The translations under genes and the position numbers were made by a program. A DNA stretch of 64,000 nucleotides from Pseudomonadota bacterium (GTDB lineage Bacteria; Bdellovibrionota; Bdellovibrionia; Bdellovibrionales; Bdellovibrionaceae). The notes under the pieces are model-generated. The model made no database searches and was not told the DNA's origin. It saw only the letters and a list, made by a program, of their open reading frames with translations. The stretch spans positions 32,001 to 96,000 of the forward strand of contig JBEGVH010000009.1 of NCBI GenBank assembly GCA_041178425.1, in the 5' to 3' direction. Within the stretch, counting starts at the first letter, position 1. Each line of letters opens with the position of its first letter. Shown here in pieces: positions 39,532 through 59,891 of the stretch.

Positions 39532-39567
39532 GTCACCTTTAATCAAAAAACTTAAGGGCCTAATGTT

Positions 39568-39876
39568 TTATTTTTTATCAGAGTATTTCGCTTCGAGATA
39601 ATCGATTATAATCTTTTGATCGCCTTCCGAAATAGGCGCACCATAGGATTGAACCATTTTATGCACGGTTTTCTCCCACCCAGCTCGATTCATCACCGGA
39701 GCATTTGTTTTGATATACTCTAAACTGTGGCAAATAATACAATAGGCAGCAACCTTTTCACCGCCCACTCCCTCTAATAATGGTTCCAACGGAGGATTTT
39801 TAACCTCCCCCGCCCACAAGAAAATGGTCTGTCCGCAAACCAAAAAAAGTGCAATAAAACTCATTTTTTTCATCAT
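39568..39876 (-). CDS. sorB: Monoheme cytochrome c, SorB-like subunit of sulfite dehydrogenase
   Basis: CIICH, W.KTV.KM..YGAPI....IIDYL pattern; directly downstream of sulfite-oxidase-family gene. Confidence 0.8.
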   Translation of the reverse strand: MMKKMSFIALFLVCGQTIFLWAGEVKNPPLEPLLEGVGGEKVAAYCIICHSLEYIKTNAPVMNRAGWEKTVHKMVQSYGAPISEGDQKIIIDYLEAKYSDKK

Positions 39877-39887
39877 ACAAGCTCCCA

Positions 39888-41081
39888 TCACTCGCCAACG
39901 ACTTGAATAGACTGGATCGCGTTATTATGGTATCCCGAAGGGTTGTGGACGGGACTCGTCGGTTGATTTTCTCCAGCGTCGTTCGTCGCTCTGGCCATAA
40001 CTTGATATTCGCTGCCTTTGTTGGGCGAAAATTTAAATGAAAAAGGGCGCCACGAATATTTACCTGGCTGCTCTCCCAATGTCGCCAAACTCCAATTTTT
40101 TCCAGCATCAATAGAAACTTCTACTTTTTGAATTCCATGACCACCATCCCAAGCAAATCCTTGGACACTGAATTCACTGCCACTCTTCAACTTCGCACCC
40201 TCTTTGAGATTGGTAATGAGTGAATTAATGAGTAACGATGAGATTGGAACCGATTTTTCATCTTCCTGCGAAGCAAAGCCTTTCTCCACCGTTGGAAACT
40301 TTCCTTTTTCAATCCGATAAGCTTTCTTCATCCAAAAATTATCTGAAGGCTTCGTTAGCGCTTCAATCGAAACCACCTCCTTAACCCAGTAACTCGCCAC
40401 CCAACCAGGAACGATGAGCCTCACCGGAAACCCATTACCCTTGGGCAGAGGTGCACCATTCAGCTCATAGGCAAGCAAGGTAGAGTCATCCATAGCTCTC
40501 TCGATTGGTATACTCTTCACGAAATCGGGGGTTCCCGGCAAGGTTGGAAAATCAGCACCGTTAAAAGCAATCTCGATAGTCTTTGGATTTATTCCTGCCC
40601 GCTGCAATACTTCTTTTAACCGAACGCCTCTCCACAAACCATTTCCAATGGCACCCTTACCCCACTGCACCCCTGGCACCCTTGGGTTAAACTCAGAACG
40701 GCGATTGCCTGCACACATTGACACCGCAGAAACCTCAACAGCAGTAAAGTCTTTCTTTAGTTTCGCCAAACTTAATTTGAATGGCTTTTCGAAACCCTCA
40801 CCATGAATTGAAATTTCCCATTTTTTTTCTACGACTTCTGTTGAATTGGGAAGATGACTGCGAACAAAGAATTTGTTGTTTGGTGTGTAGAGTGTATTGA
40901 GCTCTTCAATCGGTGTTTCGTAGTTGTGGGGGCGATCCGTCTGACGAATTAGGTCTGTTTCAAGATTTTTCTTGGGGGAGACAGCCTTCGAACCAGCAAC
41001 ACTCAATTCAGCCAAGCCTAAACAATTAAATGCTATTAAAAACAAATAACAAAAGTGGGATCCAAAGCTAAATAACTTCAT
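39888..41081 (-). CDS. sorA: Sulfite oxidase family molybdoenzyme, SorA-like
   Basis: ETP, FFVRSH, CAGNRR (Mo-ligating Cys), GFPVRLIVPGW...WVK, dimerisation domain, NPSGYHNN. Confidence 0.85.
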   Translation of the reverse strand: MKLFSFGSHFCYLFLIAFNCLGLAELSVAGSKAVSPKKNLETDLIRQTDRPHNYETPIEELNTLYTPNNKFFVRSHLPNSTEVVEKKWEISIHGEGFEKPFKLSLAKLKKDFTAVEVSAVSMCAGNRRSEFNPRVPGVQWGKGAIGNGLWRGVRLKEVLQRAGINPKTIEIAFNGADFPTLPGTPDFVKSIPIERAMDDSTLLAYELNGAPLPKGNGFPVRLIVPGWVASYWVKEVVSIEALTKPSDNFWMKKAYRIEKGKFPTVEKGFASQEDEKSVPISSLLINSLITNLKEGAKLKSGSEFSVQGFAWDGGHGIQKVEVSIDAGKNWSLATLGEQPGKYSWRPFSFKFSPNKGSEYQVMARATNDAGENQPTSPVHNPSGYHNNAIQSIQVVGE

Positions 41082-41433
41082 TTTATCCTCTGTGATGTTT
41101 TCTTAGAACCTTTTCGTTCATTGACTCTGAAACTATAGTAATGAAAGAGCCTTCGTCCAGCACAAAACGTGGTCCTCAATGAAGGTCTAACTCGATGAGG
41201 GGCCGATCAACTGAAGTCAACTCTTCTTCTCAAAATACAACATCTGGTTCCGAGACAGTGACCCCCTTTAACCATTTTAACTTTGACCGCCGGAACACGA
41301 ATCAACTAACCTTTAGTGGAAGCTAGGGTGCATTTACAATTGAGACACCATAGTTAGATAAAGTAAACGATGTGCTGGGACATGGTTTCCCATTCGGTAC
41401 TGGCTAAAATAAAACATGAGAAGGAGTTCATAA

Positions 41434-42393
41434 ATGAAACAACTTAGAGCAAACATCAGGCATTTAGTCGCAATTTCATTATTTACCCTCAGCGCCGTAA
41501 CCACCCAGGCCGCCGACGAGTTCTTCATAACCGCTGAGGAGGCACAAAAATTACCCGCCGAATCAGTTCGTTTTGTTTATGCTGACTCTGAGAAAGACTT
41601 CGAAAAAGGCCATATTCCTAATTCAGTCGTCGCTTATGCCCACGATCTGAATTATCTCGATGACGTAAACAAGTGTAAAGGGCTTCCAATGTGCGAACCC
41701 ACAGCCGCGGCCTTCATTGGAAAGACTCTTGGCATTGATAACAAAACAAAGGTTGTTGTGTATGATTCTGGCGCTGGGGTAAATGCCTCTGGAGCTTGGT
41801 TCTTCATTACCCTTTACGGCCATCCCGATGTAAAAATTCTTGATGGAGGCCTTGCCAACTGGAAAGACAAAAAGTTCGCCGTAGAAACGGGTCATGGCAG
41901 CAAAGTAGCTGAAAAAACTTTTACCCCATCGATTAAAGCCGACATGTATGCCACTCGCGATGAAGTAGAAAAAGCGACTAAGGACTCTGCGCACTATTTA
42001 ATTCTCGACTCTCGACACAATCTAGACGAATACACAGGAAAACAATTATTAAGCGGCCTGACAGCTCCGGGAAAAGAGTCTACAGTTTCTCGCGGGGGCT
42101 TTATTCCAACAGCGGTTTTTTCTCCTTGGAAAAAGTATGCTGGCAATCCCAATGGCGACGCAGGCAAACCTACACTCAAAGGCAGCGACGATATCAACAA
42201 GCAATTAGAAAAACTTAAGAAGAACGGCTACGATCAAAATAAGACGGTCATCACTTACTGCCACGTTGGGCTTGGTCGCGGTTCATTCCAATATTTAGCG
42301 CTTTTACGAGCCGGCCATAAAAATGCAAAATTATATACGGGGTCTTGGCAAGACTGGGGCAACTCAAGCCTCCCGCTAGGAAAACAAGAGTAA
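41434..42393 (+). CDS. Exported tandem-domain rhodanese/thiosulfate sulfurtransferase
   Basis: Signal peptide; GHIPNS, VVYD, LDGGLANW, active-site loop TYCHVGLGRG, LYTGSWQDW. Confidence 0.85.
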   Translation: MKQLRANIRHLVAISLFTLSAVTTQAADEFFITAEEAQKLPAESVRFVYADSEKDFEKGHIPNSVVAYAHDLNYLDDVNKCKGLPMCEPTAAAFIGKTLGIDNKTKVVVYDSGAGVNASGAWFFITLYGHPDVKILDGGLANWKDKKFAVETGHGSKVAEKTFTPSIKADMYATRDEVEKATKDSAHYLILDSRHNLDEYTGKQLLSGLTAPGKESTVSRGGFIPTAVFSPWKKYAGNPNGDAGKPTLKGSDDINKQLEKLKKNGYDQNKTVITYCHVGLGRGSFQYLALLRAGHKNAKLYTGSWQDWGNSSLPLGKQE

Positions 42394-42429
42394 AAATTAA
42401 TTATTTTTTTCAACGACCAAGGAGGGAAC

Positions 42430-43557
42430 ATGTGGTTAGCGGCATTTAAAGGAGCATTAACGGGCCTTCTTTTTGGAATGGTTCTTTATAAAGTTGGTGC
42501 TTCTCGCTACTCGAGAGTCATGGGAATGTTGACAGTGAGAGACACTAAAGTAATGAAGTTTACCTTCGTGACGATTGCCACAGCTTCTTTTATCTACGGA
42601 CTAGCAGACATTTTTGGGTTTGCAGAATCTTGGCATCTCGTACCTCGAATCATGCCCTACATGGGAGCTTCGCACATCATCGGCGGCGTTCTCTTTGGCG
42701 CAACCCTCGGATGGGTTGGTTTTTGCCCGGGCACATGTTGGGCTAAGGCAGGAGGAATGGGAGGAGATAAAAAATTTACGGCCCTCTCTTCGATCCTTGG
42801 TCTTTTGGCAGGGATTCTCATTTACAACTTCTTCAAAGAATCCATGATGAGCAATGGAATTATCGCTACCGAGCAAAAACCCCTTACACTCCATGGTGTC
42901 CTAGGCCTTTCTTATGGGGCCGCAGCAATCACTTTTGGAGCGATTTTTCTTTTGATTGCAGTGCTTATTGACCGCGGTACCACCGAAAAGTTTTTTACCC
43001 CATCCATTCAACCAAAAGCTATTATTGATTGGATCAGAGGTGAGTGGAGCTGGATGGCTTCGGGAGTTCTTGCTGGAATTCTTATTACTGCCGCAACGAT
43101 GCAAGATGGGTATTTGGGATTTTCTGGAGCACTCCTTGCTCTTGTTGGCTGGTTTTCCCATCTAGTTGGTTTTCCTATTGCTTCAGTTCCTGTGATAAAT
43201 CAGGACATTCTTTGGCGTGCTTTTTTGATTATTGGCGTTTTTCCAGGAGGACTATTAGCCAGGGCCATCTCTACTAAGTCCTTTGCCGAGGTCAATTTTA
43301 AAGGCCACAAAGTTTTCTCTCTCCCTGCGATTATAAAATCTTTCGTTGGCGGAATTGGACTCTCGCTCGGCGCCATGATCGGAGGCGGATGCACAACGGG
43401 CGCTTACCTAGCCGCATGGCCCACCCTTTCGGTGGGTAGCCTTTTAATGGGAGCCACTTTTTTTGCTTCATCCATGATCGTTGCAAATTCCCTTCTCTGG
43501 TTAAGAAAAATCAATATTGGTGACATTCAGAACCTAGGCGACAAGGTTTGCGACTAA
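42430..43557 (+). CDS. YeeE/YedE family sulfur-compound (thiosulfate) transporter, two-repeat form
   Basis: Multi-TM; GGVLFG...GFCPGT and GAMIGGGCTTG Cys motifs. Confidence 0.85.
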   Translation: MWLAAFKGALTGLLFGMVLYKVGASRYSRVMGMLTVRDTKVMKFTFVTIATASFIYGLADIFGFAESWHLVPRIMPYMGASHIIGGVLFGATLGWVGFCPGTCWAKAGGMGGDKKFTALSSILGLLAGILIYNFFKESMMSNGIIATEQKPLTLHGVLGLSYGAAAITFGAIFLLIAVLIDRGTTEKFFTPSIQPKAIIDWIRGEWSWMASGVLAGILITAATMQDGYLGFSGALLALVGWFSHLVGFPIASVPVINQDILWRAFLIIGVFPGGLLARAISTKSFAEVNFKGHKVFSLPAIIKSFVGGIGLSLGAMIGGGCTTGAYLAAWPTLSVGSLLMGATFFASSMIVANSLLWLRKINIGDIQNLGDKVCD

Positions 43558-43572
43558 TTAAAGGAAACAGAC

Positions 43573-43701
43573 ATGACAAAAACAACACGACTCGTTTTTA
43601 TTATAGCCATACTTTTAATGCTCGGAAGCTTTATTCATCTTAAAAAAAGCAACAGCGAGCTGGCTCAAACTATTTCTCAACAAAGTCAGGTGGGCCAATG
43701 A
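43573..43701 (+). CDS. Small 42-aa single-TM protein (absent from the ORF track)
   Basis: RBS AAGGA at 43561-65; MTKTTRLVFIIAILLMLGSFIHLKKSNSELAQTISQQSQVGQ; its TGA overlaps the next ATG (ATGA). Confidence 0.6.
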   Translation: MTKTTRLVFIIAILLMLGSFIHLKKSNSELAQTISQQSQVGQ

Positions 43702-44162
43702 ATTCTAAAATCGAACTGGGTGCTTATTTTACCACTATCCTAGTGCTGGCGGGCCTTCTCTTTCAAGAAGGACAAAAACGAGTCGATTTACAATCTCAAA
43801 TTTCAATCCCTCCCCAAGAGCTCTATAAAAAGTTAAGCAACTCACAAACAAAACTGCAGATCATCGACATTCGTTCTGATCAATCTTCCTATGAAGATGC
43901 ACATGTTCCCGGCGCTATCCCCCTCTATAATTGTGATTTCTTAAAAGGCAACGAGTCGACGACCAAAAATATTTTCACCTTCGCACCAACAATTATTGTT
44001 TCTGAAAATGGCGATGAAAATGTTTTCAGAGACTGCGCCAAAAACTTTACCCAAGCCAGAAACCTCGCAGGTGGTATGGCTGCATGGAGTGAAGAGGGAC
44101 TACCTGAGGATTCAAGCGAATACTCCCCACCAAAACTTTCAGGTGGCGGTGGTTGCCTCTAA
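43698..44162 (+). CDS. Membrane-anchored single-domain rhodanese-like protein with C-terminal GGGGCL tail
   Basis: N-terminal TM; IIDIR...YEDAHVPGAI, NLAGGMAAW; catalytic loop reads IIVSENG (no Cys). Confidence 0.75.
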   Translation: MNSKIELGAYFTTILVLAGLLFQEGQKRVDLQSQISIPPQELYKKLSNSQTKLQIIDIRSDQSSYEDAHVPGAIPLYNCDFLKGNESTTKNIFTFAPTIIVSENGDENVFRDCAKNFTQARNLAGGMAAWSEEGLPEDSSEYSPPKLSGGGGCL

Positions 44163-44230
44163 AGAATGATTTACATTTAAAATAAATCCGGTTTACCCTA
44201 AGAGGGACTCATAAGCGAAACGGAGTTCCT

Positions 44231-47146
44231 ATGACGGTATCCAGAAGAGATCTATTAAAAGCTGCAGCTCTGGGAAGTGTTGCGATCGGTAGTAACACTT
44301 TAGCCAAAAATGCCTTTACTGAGCCAATTCCTCAAAAAGAAGCAAAAGATATTCCGGTTATCGTTGAAGATCCAAGAGCCTCCTACCTGAACACAAAATC
44401 GATTGAAGATATGTACCGTCGAGAGTTTGCAGAAACCTTTGGCGAAAAAAAAGACCATGGCTATGCCTATCACTGTGTGAATTGCCAAGGGAACTGTGCT
44501 TGGCAAGTATGGACTAAAGACGGAAAGGTAACCCGCGAAAACCAATCCGCCAGCTACCCACAAATTGCACCCAATATTCCCGATTATAATCCACGAGGGT
44601 GCAACAAAGGCGTTCAGCATTCCCAAATTATGTATGAACAAGACCGCTTGCTTTACCCCATGAAAAGAGTTGGGCCACGAGGTGAAGGGAAATGGAAAAG
44701 AATTTCTTGGGATGAAGCTATTACTGAGGTCAGTGAAAACCTCTACAATACCATGCAAGAAAAAGGGCCTGCTGGAAACTATATACATATCGGAGCAGGT
44801 GTTCTTACGGAAGGGCGCGCCGCCTCCGTAAAACGCCTTGGAACTCTTCTGGGCGCGGTGAGACCCTACATCGCTTCCTACGTTGGAGATATGTTTCCTG
44901 GAGTTTCAACTGTTTATGGAGAAGGCAATATAGGCTGCACCTATGATTTTATCTTCAAAACCAATGTGGCTATTTTTTGGGGATGCAACCCCAATACCTC
45001 TCGCATTCCCGATGCCCATTTTCTTTGGGAAGGAAAATACAACGGCTCCAAAATTGTGGTTATTTCACCCGAATACAACTCTACAGCGATTCATGCCGAC
45101 TTGTGGGTTCCAATTAAGCCAGGCTACGATGGCCATCTTGCAATGGCAGTTCTAAACGAAATCGTTTTCAAAAAAATGTACAACGAATCGTTTGTCAAAG
45201 AATTCACCGACCTTCCTCTCCTCGTTCGCAAGGATAACAAAGAGCTTGTTCGTTTTGCAGAAATCGATACCAAAGATTCGAATTTCGATAGCAAATCTTC
45301 AGAAAAACTTCTCAAAAAAATTCTTAAGCGGGAATTAAAAGAACACGAAGTTTTCTTAGCTTGGAATCAAAAAACCAATAAAATGACGGTGCTTCCGGGC
45401 TCTGAAGGAAGTCCAGTTGAAACACTCCGCCTCAAAGACCGAGGATGGAACATCAACCCTGCCCTTTCTGGAACCTGGAAGATCAAACTAAAAGACGGCC
45501 ACACCGTCGAAGTGACTACGGTGTTTGATCTTTTCAAACAAGAACTCAAAAAATTTGATCCACTCCGCATGCACGCAGTCACAGGCGTTCATCCAACGAT
45601 CGTTAGCGAACTGGCCCGCGACATGATTGTTCCTAAAAACACCTTAGTGACAATGGGGTTTTCACTCGGAAAGTATTTTAATGGCATGCTCATCCAAAGA
45701 GCTATCTCCGCCCTAACGGCGATTAGCGGTCGACTTGGCGAATCTGGCGGCCTAAACACCGAAAATGAATGGAACATCACTGGGCTTTCTGGCCTCTCTG
45801 GATTTGAAGGCAAATACCAGCATCGGTTTGCTTCTGGATTTGTGAGCGAGTACATGCTCGGTGACAATTTAAATGACTACGATCATCTCTACGCAGAAGC
45901 TGAAATTAAAGAGAGCACTGGACTCGGTAAAAAACAGTATCGAGAGAAAATTGAGAAAATAGTCAAAGACGGCGCCAACGATGAGGGATTTAAAAACGGC
46001 AAGCCTTATTGGACGACCATGGAAACCTTTTTGTTGTTCGCCGATGCGCGCTTTCGACGAAACAAAGGAAGCTACAAAGAAGCGTTCCTTAAAAAAGCTA
46101 AGTTTATTGCCTATGGCGATTACAGAATGTCTGATTTTTGTAACTACGCCGACATTTTACTCCCCTGCAAATCCCACTATGAGGTATGGGACATTAGAAC
46201 AAATCCGGGCTATCACCGTTTTGCTAATATTGCCTACCCTCCTGCAAACTTGAAAAATGTGGGAGAAGCTAAGTCCGAATGGGAGATCTCGACTCTTATC
46301 GCAGAAAAAATTCAAGACATCGCCCTGAAAAAATACAAATCTTCAGGTGATAAAAAAGCGATTCACGTGCCCGACACAACACACACTCAAACTGGGTTTC
46401 GTGCCCTCGACGAGGTCGTCAATGAGTTTACCATCGGAGGCAAAGTCCGATCAGACAAAGATGCTGTGGAGTACATGCTCGAGCACGTGGATCAGTTCAA
46501 GCCTAATTCGACAAAAACCATGTATGAGCGTGGAGGCTTTTTGGTTCTCAATGATAAAGCCGGAAAAAGCTCGCCACTCTACTCAAATAAGCCCTACAAT
46601 ACGTTTGAAAGTAACAAGCTCTTGTACCAACCTTTTGAAACGCTCACCGGACGACTCACCTTCTACGTTGATCATCACTTGTGGATTGAAACAGGGGCTC
46701 ACATACCGACAGCACGCAATCCGATCCGGCCCAAAAAGTTTCCGTTTGTACTGATGACACCACACGCACGATGGTCAATTCACTCAACCTATAAAACTTC
46801 TAAGATCCTCCAGCGACTGCAACGAGGTAAACCTTATATCATGATCAATCCTAAGGTTGCGGAGGCAAAAGGAATCAAGGACGGCGATGAGGTTAAAATG
46901 TTTAATGACCTTGGCGAAACGTTCCTCATGGCAAAAATAACTCCTTCGGCTCCTGAGCATTCTCTCGTGATGGAACACGGATGGGAACCCTTCATGTACA
47001 AGAATAAGGTTGGGCATAACGCGCTTGTGGGCGATATGATAAATTTGCTCGAACTCAGTGATGGATGGGGTCACCTTAAATTTGGAACGAACTGGGATGG
47101 AAACCAACACGCTTATGAAACCACAGTAGATATTGTGAAAGCTTAG
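44231..47146 (+). CDS. Tat-exported type II DMSO-reductase-family Mo-bisMGD catalytic (alpha) subunit (NarG/SerA/PcrA/DdhA/EbdA-like), substrate unknown
   Basis: SRRDLLK Tat signal; HCVNCQGNC...PRGCNKG FS0 motif; YVGDMFPG likely Asp Mo ligand; TPHARWSIHS; C-terminal molybdopterin dinucleotide-binding domain. Confidence 0.9.
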   Translation: MTVSRRDLLKAAALGSVAIGSNTLAKNAFTEPIPQKEAKDIPVIVEDPRASYLNTKSIEDMYRREFAETFGEKKDHGYAYHCVNCQGNCAWQVWTKDGKVTRENQSASYPQIAPNIPDYNPRGCNKGVQHSQIMYEQDRLLYPMKRVGPRGEGKWKRISWDEAITEVSENLYNTMQEKGPAGNYIHIGAGVLTEGRAASVKRLGTLLGAVRPYIASYVGDMFPGVSTVYGEGNIGCTYDFIFKTNVAIFWGCNPNTSRIPDAHFLWEGKYNGSKIVVISPEYNSTAIHADLWVPIKPGYDGHLAMAVLNEIVFKKMYNESFVKEFTDLPLLVRKDNKELVRFAEIDTKDSNFDSKSSEKLLKKILKRELKEHEVFLAWNQKTNKMTVLPGSEGSPVETLRLKDRGWNINPALSGTWKIKLKDGHTVEVTTVFDLFKQELKKFDPLRMHAVTGVHPTIVSELARDMIVPKNTLVTMGFSLGKYFNGMLIQRAISALTAISGRLGESGGLNTENEWNITGLSGLSGFEGKYQHRFASGFVSEYMLGDNLNDYDHLYAEAEIKESTGLGKKQYREKIEKIVKDGANDEGFKNGKPYWTTMETFLLFADARFRRNKGSYKEAFLKKAKFIAYGDYRMSDFCNYADILLPCKSHYEVWDIRTNPGYHRFANIAYPPANLKNVGEAKSEWEISTLIAEKIQDIALKKYKSSGDKKAIHVPDTTHTQTGFRALDEVVNEFTIGGKVRSDKDAVEYMLEHVDQFKPNSTKTMYERGGFLVLNDKAGKSSPLYSNKPYNTFESNKLLYQPFETLTGRLTFYVDHHLWIETGAHIPTARNPIRPKKFPFVLMTPHARWSIHSTYKTSKILQRLQRGKPYIMINPKVAEAKGIKDGDEVKMFNDLGETFLMAKITPSAPEHSLVMEHGWEPFMYKNKVGHNALVGDMINLLELSDGWGHLKFGTNWDGNQHAYETTVDIVKA

Positions 47147-47169
47147 ATTTTTAAGGATAGGAAATCGAT

Positions 47170-49324: not shown

Positions 49325-49332
49325 GAGTGCTT

Positions 49333-49755
49333 ATGAAATTTTTTAAGATCTATGCCCTTTCTGCCCTTTTCCTCTTCGGTAACCAATCCGCCATGGCGGC
49401 CAAAATCGGAGAAGAAGTAGAACTCACCAGTGGCGCCGTTACAGCCTTAAGCTGCGCAAAACGCGCGCTTGCTGAGAACAACCTAGATCTCCTCTCTAGC
49501 TGCCCTCTCTCCGAAGTATCCTCGGGCTATGTTGTTTTCGATGTTGCCGAAAAGGCCATTTATCAAATATCAGAAAAAAATGTTTTTCTTTTTGAACTCG
49601 AAAGAGCCTTCGGCGGTGGAAGCATTGATTTCACCGGCAAGGTAGCCAAAGTGATTAAATCGAAAAAAGACCAGCTCGAAATCAACGTCGTCGATGTGAG
49701 TGAATACTCTATTACTCAAAAAGCGAAGCCAGGCTCTTTTAAAGGCTGTCTGTAA
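49333..49755 (+). CDS. Small exported hypothetical protein with C-terminal KGCL
   Basis: RBS AGGAG, signal peptide (SAMA), two internal Cys, last gene of the oxidoreductase operon. Confidence 0.65.
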   Translation: MKFFKIYALSALFLFGNQSAMAAKIGEEVELTSGAVTALSCAKRALAENNLDLLSSCPLSEVSSGYVVFDVAEKAIYQISEKNVFLFELERAFGGGSIDFTGKVAKVIKSKKDQLEINVVDVSEYSITQKAKPGSFKGCL

Positions 49756-50611: not shown

Positions 50612-50667
50612 AAACCAAAGGTATTAACGATATCGCCATCGTGCAAGTAAATCTGTAGGTATTTTTT

Positions 50668-51759
50668 CTACGACACGCTCTCAATACCGCCCACCAAAGA
50701 AAATATCGGAGCCCCCTTATAATCTTGTAACAACTCTAAAGCTTGCAGTGATCGAACCCCTTTTTGACAATACAAAACAATTTTCTTTTCGATGGGACCA
50801 AAACGATGTCCATTGATTAAATCAGAAAGTGGCCAATGAAGAGCTCCGTCTAAATGCCCCCGCTCCCACTCAGACTGCTCACGCACATCGACCAGAGTGA
50901 CTTGATTTTTTTTTAGCCAAATTTGAACTTCACTCCAACTCACCTCTGAGGCACGCGAACAAATGGGCAAACTGAATTGAACCGGTATTTCATTGCCTTC
51001 TCGACTACAACACACACAGGTTTTATTCTTCTTAACCTGTAATTTTAGGGTGTCTAATTCATCCATCTGAAAAAAAACAATTCTACCCAAGGGGGGATAC
51101 AGGGCATGGGCAGGATCACCCCCTGAAATAATCCATTTAAGAACGAGAGAAGCCTGTGCCGTACCAATCATGCCCACCAGAGGCCCCAAAACTCCAGACG
51201 CTGAACAATTTTTTATTAGAGCCCGTGGTTCCTCAGGTAAAAAACAACGGTAACACGGCCCCTGTGAGCTATGAAATAAACCAAACTGACCTTCGAAGCG
51301 ATCAACTGCGCCATAAATCATAGGTTTTTTGAGCTTGTGCGAAATGGCGGCAATTAAAAACTTTGTACTGAAATTATCACTTCCGTCGATGATAATATCA
51401 TAATTAGAAACGATATCTTCTGCATTTTCAGAATTTAAATTTTCTTGGTAAATATTTATTTTACAATCGGAGTTGATCTTTTTTAGTTGTCTCTCTGCAA
51501 CGTTCACTTTCGGCAAGCCCTCATCGGAAGGAGAGAACAATATTTGCCTTTGCAGATTAGTCATCGAAACTGTATCGGAATCAATCAGACCAAGAGTTCC
51601 AATTCCTGCGGCAGTGAGATAAAGTGCGGCTGGTGTGCCTAAACCTCCAACACCCACTATTAGCACCTTCGCGCTCCGAATCTTTTGTTGCCCCTCTATC
51701 CCCACAAAATCCAAACTTTCATGCCGTAAGTAACGGTTATGCTGAATCTGTTGTAGCAT
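50668..51759 (-). CDS. moeB: MoeB/MoeZ-type adenylyltransferase with C-terminal rhodanese domain
   Basis: GVGGLG, NLQRQ, DGSDNF, CYRC, CVCC; rhodanese VDVRE...GHLDGA...LYCQKGVRS. Confidence 0.9.
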   Translation of the reverse strand: MLQQIQHNRYLRHESLDFVGIEGQQKIRSAKVLIVGVGGLGTPAALYLTAAGIGTLGLIDSDTVSMTNLQRQILFSPSDEGLPKVNVAERQLKKINSDCKINIYQENLNSENAEDIVSNYDIIIDGSDNFSTKFLIAAISHKLKKPMIYGAVDRFEGQFGLFHSSQGPCYRCFLPEEPRALIKNCSASGVLGPLVGMIGTAQASLVLKWIISGGDPAHALYPPLGRIVFFQMDELDTLKLQVKKNKTCVCCSREGNEIPVQFSLPICSRASEVSWSEVQIWLKKNQVTLVDVREQSEWERGHLDGALHWPLSDLINGHRFGPIEKKIVLYCQKGVRSLQALELLQDYKGAPIFSLVGGIESVS

Positions 51760-52142
51760 TATGATTTCCCTTCGATGTGTAAGGGCTTCGATTTAATACT
51801 AAACGAATCCACTTCGAGATGAACTTCATGAAGATCGTCTACCCCAGAAAAATCAGTTTTAAATATTCGCGTGAGTTCTTTTTTAATTCTACCCTCTCGG
51901 GCACTAGTGGCTAATTCAGCAGCCGCAGGTCTAGGAAAACGAACCAATAAGGTCATCTTTCGATCGCTCATTTGAGTGATGAAATCAAATTTTTCACCCA
52001 GCTCAATTCGCAATTCAATACTATGCGCTTCTATAGAACCAAAAGAAACTTTTTGGCAATAGGAACCGTTTGTCAGAAACATTTCGAATTCTTCGATTTG
52101 AAAACGAATTCTAATATCTCTACCTTCAAATCGAACATTCAT
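51759..52142 (-). CDS. Hypothetical protein within the Moco operon
   Basis: 127-aa ORF overlapping both neighbours (translationally coupled). Confidence 0.55.
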   Translation of the reverse strand: MNVRFEGRDIRIRFQIEEFEMFLTNGSYCQKVSFGSIEAHSIELRIELGEKFDFITQMSDRKMTLLVRFPRPAAAELATSAREGRIKKELTRIFKTDFSGVDDLHEVHLEVDSFSIKSKPLHIEGKS

Positions 52143-52777
52143 ATTAACTCCAAATCTGATGGCGTATTACAATTGACAAAACAGCGATCATCAATCAACG
52201 GAAAGAGACGAGTTTTTGAGCGCTCTATCAAATTTAGAAAACTTCTACTCTTTTTTGAAAGCTGAAGTAACTCTTCTATATTTTCAACAACGGAAGGACT
52301 CGCTCTCAAGAGAATCGGAAAAACTTTTCCCTCAAAACAAAGAATTTCAGTCTCATCATCGTCCCTTCGTTGATTCACTAGATCGTACAAAAAATGCGGT
52401 TCCATCAGCGGCATATCAACTGGCATCACCAAAAGCCAAGCATCATTAATCCCTTTTTCGAGGAGCGATCGAATAACCGAGTAGAGCCCTCCGAGGGGCC
52501 CTAATCCTGGACTGATATCGGCGATACCGTCGTAGCCCTCAATCGTACCACTTAGCATTACTGAATAATTCTCAGTAACAAACTCACGGAGCATCCCAAG
52601 CGAACGATCGATCCATTTTTGACCGTCTTTTAATAAAAATCGCTTATCTTGCCCCATCCTCCGAGATTCACCCCCAGCAAGAACAACTGGTATTAGAGGT
52701 GCGCAGCACAAGAATGTTTTATCTCCTGCGTTTTCTCTTTGTGCCGATGCTGACATAATGCATGTCCCTTGAGCCAT
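52139..52777 (-). CDS. mobA: Molybdenum cofactor guanylyltransferase
   Basis: VLAGGESRRMGQDK, GPLGGL, PVDMP, NCNTPSD; exact start uncertain. Confidence 0.85.
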   Translation of the reverse strand: MAQGTCIMSASAQRENAGDKTFLCCAPLIPVVLAGGESRRMGQDKRFLLKDGQKWIDRSLGMLREFVTENYSVMLSGTIEGYDGIADISPGLGPLGGLYSVIRSLLEKGINDAWLLVMPVDMPLMEPHFLYDLVNQRRDDDETEILCFEGKVFPILLRASPSVVENIEELLQLSKKSRSFLNLIERSKTRLFPLIDDRCFVNCNTPSDLELI

Positions 52778-53193
52778 TCTGTTTCTCCGTCTTCATAGTG
52801 TTCTTTCTTCCAAATGGGGGCTCGAATTTTAATTTGCTCAATAATGAATCGCGAGGCCATGTAAGACTCATCCCGATGAAGTGAGCTTACACCAATGCCA
52901 ACACTCACCTCACCTACTGCTAACTGACCGACTCGATGCTGTACATAAATTCTAAGATCTTTACCCCAATGATCCTGAGCCTCTCTTGCAATTTCACGCA
53001 AAATTTTCTCTCCCAAGGGGGCGTAGGCATCGTAGCTCACAGCCATCACGGTCTTGCCTAAATTTACCTCTCTCACCGCGCCAAAAAAATAATTTTGAGC
53101 TCCATGCTGCATTTGCTGAGTGAACTGAAAGATGGCTTCAGGATCGAGTGGTCCCTCTGCTATACAACAAAAAACTTCACCGTATTCAGACAT
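52693..53193 (-). CDS. moaE: Molybdopterin synthase catalytic subunit
   Basis: FFGAVRE, YDAY, HRVGQL.VGE, HRDE, APIWKKEHY. Confidence 0.92.
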   Translation of the reverse strand: MSEYGEVFCCIAEGPLDPEAIFQFTQQMQHGAQNYFFGAVREVNLGKTVMAVSYDAYAPLGEKILREIAREAQDHWGKDLRIYVQHRVGQLAVGEVSVGIGVSSLHRDESYMASRFIIEQIKIRAPIWKKEHYEDGETEWLKGHALCQHRHKEKTQEIKHSCAAHL

Positions 53194-53194
53194 A

Positions 53195-53458
53195 CTACCC
53201 TCCACAGACGGGTGGAAGAATTGCAATTTCGCCACCTGGCACAACTAAGTCATGAGATGAATAAATTGACTCATCATTCGCGATAGCAGAGTCCAGAACC
53301 AGTTGATCGTCTTCAAATTGAGGATTCCTTTTTCGGAGAGCCTGACCAATTAACTGTTTTACCTCGCCGACAGTAATCTCGGAAGAGTGATCTATAACGA
53401 TATGTGTGTCATTTCCAACATACTTTCGAAAGGCCCCAAATAAACGAACTCTAGTCAT
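53195..53458 (-). CDS. moaD: Molybdopterin synthase sulfur carrier
   Basis: Ubiquitin-like, ends EIAILPPVCGG. Confidence 0.9.
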   Translation of the reverse strand: MTRVRLFGAFRKYVGNDTHIVIDHSSEITVGEVKQLIGQALRKRNPQFEDDQLVLDSAIANDESIYSSHDLVVPGGEIAILPPVCGG

Positions 53459-53459
53459 T

Positions 53460-54722
53460 TTAAATTCCCCTCTCTATTTCAAAATACTCAACCATAGCAC
53501 CAGAATCAGTGACATTGCCAAACTCAGGTAAAATAACCCAAGCATTCGCTTCGCTAAAGTTTCCAACAAGGTATGAACCCTGCTGTGGAACAATCTCTGC
53601 AACACACTCCGCCTCTTCCTGAGTCACTCGCGCCTTGTAAAAGCAGGTCAACCCTTTTGGCTTTTTCATATCAAACCTGACTTTTGCCGTTCGTTTTTCT
53701 CTCTGAGTTCTGCCGAAACGCTCATTCAAATAGGGCCGAACAAAAAACTCAAGAGCCACTGCCGTACTCACAGGATTTCCTGGCATTCCAAAGACGGGAA
53801 TCGAAGAGCCCTTTTCCTGCAAAAAAATCTCTGCAAATAGTAATGGTTTAGCGGGTCTAATTGCCACTTTATGAAAATGAATAGTGGCCTTCAAATCCTT
53901 AAGAGCGGGCACAATAAAATCATATTTTCCCATCGAGACCGCGCCCGTAGTTAGAATAAGATCAACACCACTCACTAACACCCGTTTGAAAAGTTCAATA
54001 TAGGCTTGAGGTTCATCTGGGACCAGACCATAATTGATGACTTCGCATCCCAGGTTTTGGAGCTTAGATTCTAGATAGGGACCCGTGCAATTACGTATTT
54101 TTCCATGCGGCATTTGAGACTCTCTAAAATCAACAAGCTCAGAACCGGTCGACAGAATAGCGATACGAGGCTTTCTACAAACAGGAGCCTGGGTAATTCC
54201 GCAGGCAGCCAATGGCAAAATCATATCGATTCGAAAAACAGAACCCTTAGTTAAAAGTTTTTGCCCGATTTTCATATCGCTACCCGCTGGCCTGATATTT
54301 TCCAGTGGCGCGACTGCTCGGTGAATCCGAATCCAGTCTTTACCATTGGCTCGGAAACGCTCCACCTCTTCAATTTTTACCACGGCGTTAAAAGGAGAGG
54401 GAGGCACAGGCGCACCCGTCATGATTTCGAAAGCGCCTCGGTGAGAAGAAGACCCGTTAAGTCCAGTGTCTCCTGCTGCAATTTCCCCAATCACTTCGAG
54501 TTCAACAGGCGCATCAGAGGCTGCCAGAAGTGTATCGCTCGCATTGATTGCAAAACCATCCATAGCCGAATTATCAAACGATGGAACCAGGGTCTCACTG
54601 TGAATGTCCTGAGCTAGGATACGGCCTACGGCCATCGACAAATCAACCCACTCTAATGATAGATCCCCCAGAATCCTAGCCCGCTCTCTAATTGTGGTTA
54701 AGGCCTCATCGTATGAAATCAA
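53460..54722 (-). CDS. moeA: Molybdopterin molybdotransferase
   Basis: PSFDNSAMDGFA, IMTGAPVP, STGSEL, TTGAVSMGKYD, GMPGNPVS. Confidence 0.95.
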   Translation of the reverse strand: MISYDEALTTIRERARILGDLSLEWVDLSMAVGRILAQDIHSETLVPSFDNSAMDGFAINASDTLLAASDAPVELEVIGEIAAGDTGLNGSSSHRGAFEIMTGAPVPPSPFNAVVKIEEVERFRANGKDWIRIHRAVAPLENIRPAGSDMKIGQKLLTKGSVFRIDMILPLAACGITQAPVCRKPRIAILSTGSELVDFRESQMPHGKIRNCTGPYLESKLQNLGCEVINYGLVPDEPQAYIELFKRVLVSGVDLILTTGAVSMGKYDFIVPALKDLKATIHFHKVAIRPAKPLLFAEIFLQEKGSSIPVFGMPGNPVSTAVALEFFVRPYLNERFGRTQREKRTAKVRFDMKKPKGLTCFYKARVTQEEAECVAEIVPQQGSYLVGNFSEANAWVILPEFGNVTDSGAMVEYFEIERGI

Positions 54723-55809
54723 AATGAAACTCCTTATGCCGAAGCAAATGAATTATACCAAAGACTAAAAACACCCAGAGAAGATTTTTTGTCAGTAAAA
54801 CTACGGCCACTGTTGCAAAGAGATACCATCGCCCCCCTGCCTCTTTCCAACTCTGATTGGCCAGAGTGACATGGAAACAACCTACTGTGGCTAACAACAC
54901 CACGAGCAAAAATGCAGGAATGACAACACCTGTATTGGAAATTAAAAACGAAAGAACGATGAGGAGTAAACCAAAGAAAGCCGTCGATGACCAATGTCGG
55001 GCCCCAGAACGGTAATGAGCTGTTAGTCCCCCAGAACCATGACAAAAAGGCATTCCCCCAAACGCGGCGACGACTAGGTTTCCTAATCCGATCACTCCCA
55101 AAAGCTGACGAAACGTCAATTTGCTAGACTGATTTGGAAAAAGCCGGTCGCAAATAATCTTTGTAGACAGCACTGAATTTCCCATGGTCAAAAAGATTTG
55201 TGGAAGTATCAACCCGATGACCATGCCCCAACGCACATCACTCTGAGATACACCCACACTCGCTCCCAAGACTTCACCCTCAGTCCCATTCACCAGACCA
55301 ATAAAAAAGGCAATGGTAGCACTCAGGCCTAGAAGGGGAACACCACGCCACTCCGATCTCCAAAGAAGAGCACTAACGAAAACAAAACAAAGAGCAATTT
55401 CTAATGGAGGAAGGCTCGCTTTTGATGCTGATTGAACGGATTGCAGAATTAACAATACGCCTAAGCCCACTTGGAGTTGGTGAATCAATATCAGCGGAAC
55501 TTTACTGAGGATTGAATCAATTTTTTTACCCTTAAACAACAGCAGTATACAAAAAAAACCTATCCCTGCACCTGCCCAGCGAATTTCAGCAAAAGAGGCT
55601 CCAATAGCCACTGCTGCCATTGCCACTGACTTGAGTGGCTGAACTGGCATAGGCACCCGATAGTACAAGGCTGAGAACACATAAATAAAACCCGTAGAAA
55701 TTAAAAGGGGCGCCATAGATACATGAGCCTTTGAACTCAATAAGACCAAAATTGGAAACAAAATAGCCGCATCCCCAAAAGCACCAAAAAAATTACTTAC
55801 CAGCTTCAT
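54706..55809 (-). CDS. MOT1-type putative molybdate/sulfate transporter
   Basis: GAFGD, PMPVQPLK, LPQ..LT.GNS, GGMPFCHGSGGL.AHYRSGAR motifs; embedded in Moco operon. Confidence 0.8.
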   Translation of the reverse strand: MKLVSNFFGAFGDAAILFPILVLLSSKAHVSMAPLLISTGFIYVFSALYYRVPMPVQPLKSVAMAAVAIGASFAEIRWAGAGIGFFCILLLFKGKKIDSILSKVPLILIHQLQVGLGVLLILQSVQSASKASLPPLEIALCFVFVSALLWRSEWRGVPLLGLSATIAFFIGLVNGTEGEVLGASVGVSQSDVRWGMVIGLILPQIFLTMGNSVLSTKIICDRLFPNQSSKLTFRQLLGVIGLGNLVVAAFGGMPFCHGSGGLTAHYRSGARHWSSTAFFGLLLIVLSFLISNTGVVIPAFLLVVLLATVGCFHVTLANQSWKEAGGRWYLFATVAVVLLTKNLLWVFLVFGIIHLLRHKEFHFDFIR

Positions 55810-56842
55810 GACCCTCTCCGCGAATCATCTTGAGAGCATGCGGTATCAACTCACTGAGAACTTGCATCCCCTCTTTGACGGCCTTTGGGCTCCCAGGCAG
55901 ACAAACAACTATTGTTTGGCCTACCTGTATTGCAACAGATCGACTCAACCACGCATTTTTAGTAAACTGCGAACCATAGCTTCTTAATCGCTCTCCGATG
56001 CCGGGAATAATCCGACCATTCATTGTCTCTGCTAAAGTATTTAGTGCTTCCGGAGTCACATCACGAGGCGACAAACCGGTGCCACCGGTCGTAATTATTA
56101 AATTGGGTTGAACTTTTTGAATCCATGCTTTGAGAGTTTCATTTATAGCGCTCACATTATCGGGAACGATTCCGTGGCTTAGGAGTTTGGAGTTGCGCTC
56201 AATGAGCCAGTCATGAATGACTGGCCCAGATCGATCTTCGTACTGGCCACGGGCTGCCCGATCACTAACAGTTAATGCACAGACTTGGATTTCGGCCCAG
56301 GCCTGATCGCCCACCAAATCCGTTTTTTTTATCAACCCACCGACTTCGCCTGCAGCAGAAGGCAAGGAGGGATTGTTCCACACCCCCGACTTACCCCCCT
56401 GCTTGAACTCGAGTTGAACATCACCAATTCGCAAAACTGGATCAACACCCTTGGCGAGATCATAGATGCAAAGAAGGGCTGCTGTCGCGCCACAAAGAGC
56501 CTCCATTTCAACACCGGTTTTACCAACCGTCTGGGCTTCACAAGAGACTTTTATTCGATTATTTTCTTCAAACTCAGTCCATACTCTGACCGACGACAGA
56601 TCGAGCGGATGGCAGAGCGGCAAAAGGTCGATGGTTCGTTTGGCAGCCTGAATACCCGCCACCTCGCAAAGCACAAGAACATCGCCTTTTGGCAGGCGAC
56701 GCTCTTTAATCAATTGAAGAGTTTCGGGCTGAGCGTAAAAAAATCCGCTGGCCCGGGCAATACGATGGGTTTCCCCCTTAGCCGAGATATCAATCATTCG
56801 AAAATTAGCCACCGATTTCGGCGAAATTGGCTGTTGTTCCAT
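55793..56842 (-). CDS. moaC: MoaC-MoaB/MogA fusion
   Basis: MIDIS.K, LPLCHP, TGVEMEAL, K.GGKSG then TVSDR...DRSGP, TTGGTGLSPRDVTPEA, LPGSPKAV. Confidence 0.92.
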   Translation of the reverse strand: MEQQPISPKSVANFRMIDISAKGETHRIARASGFFYAQPETLQLIKERRLPKGDVLVLCEVAGIQAAKRTIDLLPLCHPLDLSSVRVWTEFEENNRIKVSCEAQTVGKTGVEMEALCGATAALLCIYDLAKGVDPVLRIGDVQLEFKQGGKSGVWNNPSLPSAAGEVGGLIKKTDLVGDQAWAEIQVCALTVSDRAARGQYEDRSGPVIHDWLIERNSKLLSHGIVPDNVSAINETLKAWIQKVQPNLIITTGGTGLSPRDVTPEALNTLAETMNGRIIPGIGERLRSYGSQFTKNAWLSRSVAIQVGQTIVVCLPGSPKAVKEGMQVLSELIPHALKMIRGEGHEAGK

Positions 56843-57791
56843 AAATTCCTTTTTGCAATTGATGGGATATTTTTTTGTTAACCATAAGTTCTTTTATCAC
56901 ATTGGGAAGATCTCTCATTTGCTCGTCGCTTTGAAGCCACGGGCGAAGATCAAGATCTCCATCTCCAAACAAACAGAGGCGTAATTTTCCGCGGGCAGAA
57001 ACCCGCAAGCGATTGCAAGAATGGCAAAAATCGTTAGAGTACGGTGCAATCAAACCAATCGAACCCTGAAATTCTGGGTGCACAAAAACATCGGCAGGGC
57101 CATCTTGAAGTCCTCTCTCGATGGACTCCCAACCACGCCGAAACAACTCTTCCCTAACGACTCCCGTCGATAAATGTCGGTCGGCAAAAAAATCCAAATT
57201 ATCTCCCGTCTTCATCAATTCGATAAACCGTATACTAATCTGACGATTTTTTGCGTAATTGAGGAAAGCCCCAACTTCAGAATCATTGAGTCCTTTTAAA
57301 AGAACAACATTCACTTTGATTTTTGTGAAACCAATGACCAAGGCATCATCAATACAATCGATGATTTGATGAAATAGCGGTGATCCTGTAATTTTGGCAA
57401 AACTTTCATTTTTCAAACTATCAAGACTTATATTTAAAGCCGACAAACCAGCTTTTTTTAAATCAGGCAAGAGCGACCTTAAGCGAAAGGCATTCGTTGT
57501 AAGCGCTATATTTTTGATGTTTTTTTGGGACGAAATTGTTTCGATAATTTCTAAAATATCTTTTCGAAGAGTTGGTTCTCCTCCAGTAATGCGAACTTTC
57601 TGAAAACCCAAAGATGAAAAACCATGAACCAAACGACGAATTTCTTCCAGACTCATTTCATTGGCAGTCTCGCATGGATTCTTCTTGTATCCATTAGGCA
57701 AGCAATAGGAACAGCGAAAATTACAACGATCGGTCACCGACAGTCGCAAGTATTTAAATGTTCGCCCGAATGAATCCCTTAACTCGCCCAT
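56805..57791 (-). CDS. moaA: GTP 3',8-cyclase (radical SAM)
   Basis: LRLSVTDRCNFRCSYC, TGGEP, FCHSCNRLR...LCLF, C-terminal IGG. Confidence 0.96.
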   Translation of the reverse strand: MGELRDSFGRTFKYLRLSVTDRCNFRCSYCLPNGYKKNPCETANEMSLEEIRRLVHGFSSLGFQKVRITGGEPTLRKDILEIIETISSQKNIKNIALTTNAFRLRSLLPDLKKAGLSALNISLDSLKNESFAKITGSPLFHQIIDCIDDALVIGFTKIKVNVVLLKGLNDSEVGAFLNYAKNRQISIRFIELMKTGDNLDFFADRHLSTGVVREELFRRGWESIERGLQDGPADVFVHPEFQGSIGLIAPYSNDFCHSCNRLRVSARGKLRLCLFGDGDLDLRPWLQSDEQMRDLPNVIKELMVNKKISHQLQKGIYGTTANFAEIGG

Positions 57792-57920
57792 GATTCCCCT
57801 TGTAGAGTGTTAGGAATTTCAATTTCTCAAAATTCCCTGGTAGCCAAAACATTTTGACCACGACATCAACCGCTTATTAATTTTCAAATTAACTTAGCCG
57901 ATGATGCTCGGAGACCTTTT
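57792..57920 (-). promoter_or_regulatory. Moco riboswitch (molybdenum cofactor RNA motif) in the moaA leader
   Basis: Minus strand: CTCCGAGC-ATCATCGG-CTAAG-TTAATTT GAAA ATTAA-TAAGCGG-TTGATG; stem GTGGTCAAAA/TTTTGGCTAC; CAGGG-AATTTTGA GAAA TTGAAATT-CCT; then SD AAGGGG. Same order of elements as the E. coli moaA leader. Confidence 0.75.
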
Positions 57921-58051
57921 TCTTAAAATAAACAACTGTTATAGTAGCCAGCAATAAAAGAGCTTCGCAAGATTTTTCTCCTGTCCTTTTTTGACTCAGT
58001 TTGCCGAGGGAATAAGCCTATAGAAAGGGCCACATCAAACATCTGAACTTG

Positions 58052-59098: not shown

Positions 59099-59106
59099 GA
59101 AAACAG

Positions 59107-59886: not shown

Positions 59887-59891
59887 GACGT

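What the first reader, a model, noticed from the sequence alone, without database searches (positions are those of the whole stretch)
39568..57920. Self-sufficient ~18 kb molybdenum/sulfur-relay island in an apparent predatory bacterium
Seen: divergent sorAB versus an operon of exported rhodanese, YeeE/YedE, a small TM protein, an anchored rhodanese, DMSO-reductase type II alpha/beta/gamma and a small exported protein. Converging on it are mrp/apbC and a riboswitch-led moaA-moaCB-MOT1-moeA-moaD-moaE-mobA-orf-moeB operon. Known: SorAB oxidises sulfite in the periplasm; rhodaneses split thiosulfate into sulfite plus enzyme-bound sulfane; YeeE moves thiosulfate; MobA makes the MGD needed by DMSOR enzymes; ApbC delivers Fe-S. 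No soxABXYZ, dsr, tsdA or nitrate/nitrite transporter genes are in the window. Inference: a Sox-independent periplasmic thiosulfate/sulfane (or selenium oxyanion) pathway in which rhodaneses feed sulfite to SorAB and carrier-bound sulfur to the uncharacterised type II Mo enzyme. That would be an unexpected energy or detoxification module in a Bdellovibrionota-like host.
Basis: partly seen in the sequence, partly recalled or inferred. Interest (0 to 1): 0.88.

Follow-up and report, generated by a model that had tools for sequence, protein, structure and literature searches.

The report
Strain-variable sulfur-oxidation island in predator
An 18.5-kb block of genes, present in some strains of a Bdellovibrio-like bacterium and missing in another, encodes an uncharacterised molybdenum enzyme with its own small cysteine-tailed partner protein, and probably represents an undescribed way for bacteria to oxidise sulfur for energy.

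Summary
All genes are real. The island is a true accessory unit: a contig of a near-identical strain joins window 39529 to 58059 without it. The catalytic subunit occurs in 2 of 390 genomes of the host's class (Bdellovibrionales by inference). Its core (rhodanese, YeeE, microprotein, degenerate rhodanese, alpha/beta/gamma+cytochrome c, small protein) is intact in 28 of 28 fully flanked loci; sorAB and the Moco operon are optional add-ons. The small OB-fold protein is predicted to dock on the Mo subunit (0.77, controls 0.00), its tail root beside a funnel residue. The enzyme forms its own branch beside chlorate reductase, outside Nar. It is in 42 of 50 Hydrogenothermaceae (SoxB 34 of 50, SoxC 0 of 50) and in none of 128 other Aquificota. 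This genome has SQR and persulfide dioxygenase but no Sox. Best reading (0.6): periplasmic oxidation of carrier-bound sulfane sulfur, a convergent SoxYZ/SoxCD analogue. No activity or expression is shown. The scan found this module before on other DNA; I found no paper on it.

The parts
39530..58058 (.). The island as a unit: present in G000, absent from an island-free allele; lies between the stop codons of two convergent genes
   Evidence: joint 39529-58059 in run X5; one 27.7-kb contig spans it in X1; no terminal repeat, tRNA or integrase seen
39568..39891 (-). sorB-like monoheme cytochrome c
   Evidence: NF052246 71.7 bits, below cut-off 93; CxxCH
39888..41081 (-). sorA-like sulfite dehydrogenase, Mo subunit
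   Evidence: best PDB match SorA 2blf, E 2e-86; NF052245 384 bits, below cut-off 600
41434..42393 (+). Exported tandem rhodanese; catalytic Cys276 in loop CHVGLG, Asp in the first domain
   Evidence: Cys276 62 of 62
42430..43557 (+). YeeE/YedE sulfur transporter
   Evidence: PF04143; Cys99 65 of 66, Cys103 59 of 66, Cys321 66 of 66
43573..43701 (+). 42-aa single-TM microprotein, conserved in position
   Evidence: counterpart in 59 of 65 loci that have rhd2
43698..44162 (+). Membrane-anchored degenerate rhodanese with C-terminal GGCL cysteine arm (Cys153)
   Evidence: tail in 65 of 65; alignment A2
44231..47146 (+). Tat-exported type II Mo-bisPGD catalytic subunit; FS0 His81/Cys85/Cys89/Cys124, Mo ligand Asp220
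   Evidence: (each 50 of 50), tree
47170..48165 (+). Fe-S beta subunit
   Evidence: TIGR03478 522 bits, over cut-off
48110..49324 (+). gamma: EbdC-type heme b domain fused to class I cytochrome c (probable ATG start 48158)
   Evidence: PF09459 + PF00034; conserved Met159, Lys250, CxxCH, Met382
49327..49755 (+). Small exported OB-like barrel with flexible FKGCL arm (Cys141); predicted partner of alpha; proposed sulfur carrier
   Evidence: tail 56 of 56; model pLDDT 86.9; OB-fold matches Z up to 6.6; complex 0.77 vs best control 0.00
49739..50611 (-). mrp/apbC Fe-S carrier
   Evidence: PF10609; beside the module in 28 of 67 loci
50668..51759 (-). moeB with rhodanese domain
51759..52142 (-). 127-aa ORF, weak DUF7009; same position in congener G001
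52139..52777 (-). mobA
52693..53244 (-). moaE
53195..53458 (-). moaD
53460..54722 (-). moeA
54706..55809 (-). MOT1 molybdate transporter
   Evidence: PF16983
55793..56842 (-). moaC-moaB fusion
   Evidence: NF002947 over cut-off
56805..57791 (-). moaA
   Evidence: TIGR02666 over cut-off
57779..57925 (-). Moco riboswitch
   Evidence: RF01055, E 3e-11

Best explanation
The core module is a periplasmic system that oxidises protein-bound sulfane sulfur. Inferred steps: (1) the exported rhodanese (Cys276) takes a sulfane atom from thiosulfate or polysulfide, releasing sulfite; (2) the sulfur moves onto C-terminal cysteine arms: the anchored degenerate rhodanese (with the microprotein) links this pool to the YeeE channel, and the small OB-fold protein carries it; (3) the OB protein docks on the Mo subunit and swings its arm into the funnel, where the Mo-bisPGD/Asp site adds oxygen from water, giving sulfite or an S-sulfonate; (4) electrons pass FS0, beta clusters, heme b, fused heme c to the host's aa3/cbb3 oxidases; (5) SorAB oxidises the sulfite to sulfate. 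In this genome it would finish what the SQR/persulfide dioxygenase operon starts, as an optional energy or detoxification trait. The Moco operon and mrp make the unit portable into a host with no other Mo enzyme. Shown: genes, conservation, island polymorphism, distribution. Predicted: folds and docking. Inferred: substrate, direction, products.
For: Seven core genes together in 28 of 28 loci passing the flank filter. Cys arms invariant: 56 of 56 and 65 of 65; SoxY ends in a similar GGCG arm. Docking score 0.77, best control 0.00, runs agree in at least 72% of contacts, partner pLDDT at least 81; this mark was reached by 116 of 157 solved and 2 of 215 mismatched pairs; tail residues 135-136 are in the interface, as are alpha 504/515/517, next to Trp514, which aligns with PcrA Trp461. 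A sister clade at 38% identity keeps a rhodanese (19 of 22 loci), YeeE (11 of 22), ArsR and a homologous Cys-tailed protein. Neighbours: ArsR-rhodanese in 20 of 67 loci, persulfide dioxygenase-like in 6, COX1 in 10. Hydrogenothermaceae: alpha 42 of 50, SoxB 34 of 50, SoxC 0 of 50 over cut-off; alpha in 0 of 128 other Aquificota; the sHdr table of PMC11094781 lists Aquificaceae 27 times, Hydrogenothermaceae never. Module 12-20 kb from soxXYZAB in two genomes. Cytochrome c exit and oxidases in the host.
Against: No activity, expression or persulfidation data. No type II enzyme is known to me to act on a protein-bound substrate (recalled). The tip of the arm (137-142, with Cys141) is not among the confidently placed residues, and the job used trimmed chains and my own alignments. 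One of six sister-clade homologues lacks the terminal Cys (L115). sorA is adjacent in only 14 of 67 loci. The nearest characterised relative is a reductase (ClrA, 35%). PMC10762115 calls the Sox pathway of most Hydrogenothermaceae isolates 'full'. The lineage counts are not phylogenetically independent. 2 of 5 carriers tested had no match to the G000 SQR. No TusA partner for YeeE in this genome.
Confidence: 0.6

Rival explanations
1. The enzyme oxidises a free sulfur compound (sulfite, thiosulfate, DMS or methanethiol) like DdhABC, and the small protein is a fixed fourth subunit, gate or redox regulator, not a shuttle.
For: Same alpha-beta-gamma architecture as soluble dehydrogenases; the confident, large predicted interface could be a stable subunit; branch sister to the Clr group.
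Against: Does not explain the obligatory rhodanese, YeeE and second Cys arm; SorAB beside it would be redundant for sulfite.
Confidence: 0.14
2. The module runs reductively or as one branch of disproportionation of thiosulfate, tetrathionate or polysulfide.
For: A second unclassified Mo enzyme (weak PhsA/DmsA hits) with an NrfD-type anchor follows in 18 of 67 loci; rhodaneses and SorAB rise during disproportionation in Sulfurovum (PMC13609358 passages).
Against: The His/Met heme c and Met/Lys heme b exit implies high potential, too high to reduce sulfur or thiosulfate (potentials recalled); no quinol-oxidising subunit in the core; host has oxygen reductases.
Confidence: 0.11
3. It is a selenate/selenite (or tellurite) reductase with a selenium-trafficking relay.
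For: Nearest characterised branch is the Clr group, to which SerA belongs (recalled; tree); YedE-like proteins can move selenium (PMC11582611 passage); weak ExtH hit for the rhodanese (51 bits, cut-off 200).
Against: Neighbours are sulfur genes (sorAB, persulfide dioxygenase, DsrE, SQR-like, sox cluster); near-core in sulfur chemolithotrophs.
Confidence: 0.1
4. It is a periplasmic nitrate or (per)chlorate reductase.
For: Best PDB match is PcrA; 35% identity to ClrA; host congeners carry Nar-type operons with Moco cassettes.
Against: Outside the Nar clade; PcrA Phe164/Tyr165 are Ile214/Ala215; no chlorite dismutase or NarJ hit in 67 loci or the genome; three carrier genomes checked have bona fide NapA.
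Confidence: 0.05

Closest known systems
Soluble periplasmic type II DMSO-reductase-family complexes: ClrABDC (nearest in my tree), SerABDC, DdhABDC, EbdABC, PcrAB
   Same: Tat-exported Mo-bisPGD subunit with Asp ligand and His/3Cys FS0, four-cluster beta, EbdC-type heme b gamma
   Different: 35% identity at most to those I could compare; no delta chaperone; gamma fused to cytochrome c; always with rhodanese, YeeE and two Cys-arm proteins; a small OB-fold partner predicted on the catalytic subunit
SoxYZ with SoxCD sulfane dehydrogenase
   Same: Periplasmic, Cys on a flexible C-terminal arm, Mo enzyme wired to cytochrome c (proposed working principle)
   Different: No homology seen: carrier is an OB-like barrel, enzyme is Mo-bisPGD not sulfite-oxidase type; no SoxY, SoxB or SoxA in this genome
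SorAB sulfite:cytochrome c oxidoreductase (PDB 2blf)
   Same: sorA/sorB pair, E 2e-86
   Different: Below the NCBIfam equivalog cut-offs; optional neighbour of the module
YeeE/SoxT/TsuA transporters with TusA-like partners; YTD cluster
   Same: YeeE with conserved cysteines
   Different: No TusA/YeeD in the genome; partners appear to be periplasmic
Heterotrophic SQR-rhodanese-persulfide dioxygenase pathway
   Same: Present elsewhere in this genome (C13:55069-59297)
   Different: Separate locus; would supply, not replace, the island's substrates

Membership tests
Type II DMSO reductase family | Asp ligand to Mo | tested here: met
   Asp220 aligns with PcrA Asp170, 50 of 50
Type II DMSO reductase family | FS0 His-Cys-Cys-Cys motif and Tat signal | tested here: met
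   His81/Cys85/Cys89/Cys124; SRRDLLK
Type II DMSO reductase family | beta Fe-S and heme b gamma subunits | tested here: met
   TIGR03478 over cut-off; PF09459 over cut-off; alpha 795 bits is under the TIGR03479 cut-off of 985
ClrABDC chlorate reductase | Alpha inside the Clr clade | tested here: not met
   35% identity; separate starred branch, sister to the Clr group
ClrABDC / PcrAB | Chlorite dismutase and delta chaperone linked | tested here: not met
   No Cld hit in 67 loci or genome; ClrD/TorD/NarJ queries found nothing in the genome
NarGH nitrate reductase | Alpha inside the Nar clade; TIGR01580 cut-off | tested here: not met
   219 bits vs 1084; tree
SerABDC, DdhABDC, PcrA | Alpha inside their clades | tested here: inconclusive
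EbdABC | NF042978 cut-off | tested here: not met
   354 bits vs 2000
Sox system | SoxY, SoxB, SoxA genes | tested here: not met
   Not found in G000; SoxB 0 of 42 non-Aquificota carriers
Sox system (works like) | Carrier with C-terminal Cys arm loaded with sulfur | not testable with these tools
   Arm is invariant; loading needs mass spectrometry
SoxY fold | Structural likeness of the small protein to SoxY | tested here: inconclusive
   Listed matches are OB-type barrels, best Z 6.6, rmsd 3.4, 81 aligned; SoxY not among listed rows
Catalytic rhodanese (41434-42393) | Active-site Cys in the C-terminal domain | tested here: met
   Cys276 aligns with YC of 3hwi, 62 of 62
Catalytic rhodanese (43698-44162) | Active-site Cys loop | tested here: not met
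   Loop reads TIIVSENG; only Cys79, Cys113, Cys153 invariant
SorAB | NCBIfam equivalog cut-offs | tested here: inconclusive
   Best hits are SorA/SorB but under cut-off; best PDB match 2blf
Integrative mobile element | Integrase, tRNA site or terminal repeats | tested here: not met

The most novel reading that the evidence does not exclude
This is a fourth route for oxidising sulfane sulfur, beside SoxCD, reverse Dsr and sHdr: a Mo-bisPGD enzyme working on a persulfide held on the swinging arm of an OB-fold carrier. It would fill the SoxCD gap in Hydrogenothermaceae and, packaged with SorAB and Moco genes, let predatory Bdellovibrionota and Myxococcota gain or lose lithoheterotrophy as one cassette.
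Probability: 0.45. Interest if true: 0.93.

Novelty: new variant of a known kind. Interest (0 to 1): 0.82.

Why it matters
The truncated Sox system needs SoxCD, rDsr or sHdr to finish thiosulfate oxidation (PMC13500833 passage). Hydrogenothermaceae, common sulfur oxidisers of hot springs and vents, have SoxB but no SoxC over cut-off and are absent from a published sHdr table; this module is near-core there and absent from other Aquificota, so it is a named, testable candidate for the missing step, in culturable organisms. It would also reassign many genes labelled as nitrate-reductase-like and add predators to the sulfur cycle. The island-free allele gives a natural with/without pair in one species.

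Tried and rejected
GC, GC3 and codon scores: island like the genome, so no donor signal. Repeats, tRNA, promoter and terminator scans: nothing above chance. ESM Atlas: only hypothetical clusters for the small protein; Foldseek: no match at E 0.001. My recollection that 'RhL' was a rhodanese-linked clade was wrong: it is resorcinol hydroxylase. I first labelled the downstream second Mo enzyme 'Ttr-like'; NCBIfam gave only weak DmsA/PhsA hits, label dropped. The CCG-domain search for sHdr was unspecific (50 of 50); the HdrB-like gene examined sits beside a fumarate-reductase Fe-S gene. No RNA holder listed: no statement on expression. Cluster look-ups gave no taxon names. The alpha model (pLDDT 77.8) gave no coordinates to inspect and was not used. 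Two Sulfurovum papers and one Dissulfuribacter paper did not describe this module in the passages seen. Exclusivity of linked sorA (14 loci) and the second Mo enzyme (18 loci), overlap 0, Fisher p 0.014: kept as a hint only, since loci are truncated and related. Alpha and SoxB co-absence in Hydrogenothermaceae is confounded by small incomplete genomes. Sister-clade neighbourhoods were read in full for 7 of 22 loci.
Full report
OBSERVATION. Pfam and NCBIfam support sorA/sorB, a tandem rhodanese, YeeE, a single rhodanese domain, type II alpha, beta, gamma, mrp and the Moco operon; Rfam finds the Moco riboswitch. tblastn against the whole genome (3.06 Mb, 100% complete) finds no second copy of the Mo enzymes or Moco genes; only paralogues of mrp and moeB and a beta-like domain that belongs to an alternative-complex-III-like cluster (the ACIII label is my reading).

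HOST. EF-Tu is 85% identical to that of the genome behind L001 (title Bdellovibrionales), 81% to a Bacteriovorax-titled genome, 80% to a Myxococcota. The one other class member with the alpha gene, G328, is 'same order' and its match coincides with L001. So the host is Bdellovibrionales by inference. Predation itself was not tested; two unchecked scan notes on this genome point the same way. DNA holders are freshwater metagenomes.

IT IS AN ISLAND. Alpha was found in 0 of 60 relatives and 2 of 390 class genomes including this one. In congeners G001-G003 phnE has other neighbours. Laying four runs on 38500-58400 showed one 27.7-kb contig spanning the stretch (X1, possibly the source) and, in X5, a 5540-bp contig that joins 39529 to 58059, with 42 differences over the left flank and none over 342 bases of the right. 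Short low-depth X5 contigs also fall inside the island, so both forms may coexist there. This rests on one contig in one run. Both flanking genes keep a stop codon in either allele. No integrase, tRNA or terminal repeat was seen, so exchange by recombination in the flanks is my inference; gain versus loss in that strain cannot be told. GC and codon use match the genome, fitting a related donor: three Bdellovibrionota-titled loci carry the module, two with Moco genes and sorAB nearby in different orders. The Moco operon is a separate cassette: same order in G001 (MoaA 69%) beside anaerobic genes, without the module; moaA matched 41 of 390 class genomes.

CONSERVED CORE. The GTDB scan confirmed 318 stretches and returned the best 67 loci: by title 16 Aquificota, 3 Bdellovibrionota, 43 Myxococcota or deltaproteobacteria, 5 other. 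YeeE and the anchored rhodanese hit 65 of 67, beta 64, rhodanese 61, gamma 58, small protein 56, mrp 28, sorA 14. All 28 loci passing a flank filter have all seven core genes (the filter drops truncated loci and some with a second Mo enzyme). The microprotein has a counterpart in 59 of 65. The small protein ends FKGCL in 56 of 56 and the anchored rhodanese GGCL in 65 of 65. The latter lacks a catalytic-loop Cys. The lead to look at these tails came from earlier scan notes; the counts are mine. The small protein folds as an OB-like barrel with a low-confidence tail.

PARTNER. Alpha 76-958 with small protein 26-142, each as an alignment, scored 0.77 against a best control of 0.00; runs agree in at least 72% of contacts, partner pLDDT at least 81; 116 of 157 solved complexes and 2 of 215 mismatched pairs reach the mark, roughly so with own alignments. 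This supports binding but does not show it. I found no solved homologue of the small protein, so memory of a like complex is unlikely. The interface includes small-protein 135-136 and alpha 515/517. Alpha Trp514 aligns with PcrA Trp461, and Ile214/Ala215 replace Phe164/Tyr165; that these PcrA residues line the substrate tunnel is recalled, the paper was not held. The Cys tip is not confidently placed.

PHYLOGENY. In a 27-row tree (chosen from 67 candidates; 49-row quick tree) the module alphas form a 100/99 clade, nested with P0138/P0140, P0139 and P0142, sister to the ClrA group (100/100) and apart from Nar and Ebd-like rows. SerA, DdhA and PcrA themselves were not in the tree. The P0139 clade (38%) keeps rhodanese (19 of 22 loci), YeeE (11 of 22), ArsR, and a small protein ending in Cys-Leu in 5 of 6 aligned, homologous to ours (hhalign 95.8%, E 7.6e-9), with DsrE and SQR-like genes in one locus. 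ClrA and haloarchaeal Nar loci have none of these. The sulfur relay is therefore older than this clade.

METABOLIC CONTEXT. G000 has crp-rhodanese-two YeeE halves-SQR-persulfide dioxygenase on C13 (the SQR is under the cut-off of its best model, the YeeE halves are my reading of the sequence), cbb3 and a second heme-copper oxidase, and no SoxY, SoxB, SoxA/TsdA or TusA. The SQR matched 7 of 40 relatives, 3 of 4 congeners, and 3 of 5 other carriers, only one strongly. SoxB: 0 of 42 non-Aquificota carriers. In the family of G065 (Sulfurihydrogenibium): alpha 42 of 50, SoxB over cut-off 34 of 50, SoxC over cut-off 0 of 50, with 20 sub-cut-off hits scoring like the window's SorA. The phylum search found the same 42 among 178. 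NapA is present in the three carriers scanned.

MECHANISM AND ODDS. Carrier-bound sulfane oxidation feeding cytochrome c, with SorAB finishing: 0.6. Free-substrate dehydrogenase with a fixed subunit 0.14; reductive or disproportionating sulfur chemistry 0.11; selenium 0.10; nitrate/chlorate 0.05. Direction rests on the cytochrome c exit and recalled potentials.

LITERATURE. Nine searches found no description of this module; most subscription journals are not held. Seen as passages only: PMC10100899, PMC10045233, PMC13609358, PMC11582611, PMC13500833, PMC4220137, PMC11094781 (plus a search of its supplementary table), PMC10762115, PMC12345210, PMC13490349. PMC12345210 reports all 37 binned SorA in Myxococcota genomes, in line with the carriers here. 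PMC10762115 speaks of a full Sox pathway in Hydrogenothermaceae isolates, which my SoxC scan does not bear out; its supplementary note was not read and may bear on this. Eight earlier scan notes describe the same or related modules on other DNA; they are not independent support, and one is marked as partly fallen.

VERDICT. A real, strain-variable island carrying an uncharacterised, widely conserved Mo-enzyme system with a predicted cysteine-arm partner. New here: exact island limits and an empty allele, the predicted docking, the SoxCD/sHdr-complementary distribution in Aquificota, and the SQR/PDO context. Function remains inferred.

Noticed in passing
G000:C13:55069-59297 (L126:7070-11298): crp-like regulator, rhodanese, two short YeeE halves, SQR and persulfide dioxygenase in one operon: heterotrophic sulfide oxidation in a Bdellovibrionales genome; SQR in 3 of 4 congeners.
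   Followed up: partly
window 38377-39531: Exported 384-aa protein of no family at the left border; about 4% divergent between strains while the island is nearly invariant; one paralogue on the same contig.
   Followed up: partly
L044:15150-19346, L140:14123-19589 and 16 more loci: A second, unclassified 1070-1100-aa Tat Mo enzyme with Fe-S, NrfD-type and TorD-type genes follows the module in 18 of 67 loci, never together with linked sorA.
   Followed up: partly
L104-L125: Sister clade couples alpha/beta to different membrane modules (cytochrome bd-I-like plus cytochrome c; Rieske/cytochrome b plus multiheme-EB_dh fusion).
   Followed up: partly
L098-L100 (G001, G002): Congeners carry Nar-type operons with their own Moco cassette and TauE, and anaerobic ribonucleotide reductases: anaerobic capacity in Bdellovibrionales relatives.
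   Followed up: no
G435:C1:1314396-1317116, G430:C31, G438:C7, G395:C3: Alpha gene interrupted by stops or split in a few Hydrogenothermaceae genomes; pseudogenes or sequencing errors.
   Followed up: no
window 44474-44476 (alpha Cys82): Extra cysteine inside the FS0 motif (HCVNC), 50 of 50 in alignment A4; role unknown.
   Followed up: no
window 4678-13920: 3080-aa ORF, not annotated here.
   Followed up: no
window 33579-36404: 941-aa exported protein with no Pfam or NCBIfam hit; orthologues in 2 of 4 congeners.
   Followed up: partly
window 58052-60794: phnDCE-type ABC transporter at the right border, present in all 4 congeners (phnD), so not part of the island.
   Followed up: yes
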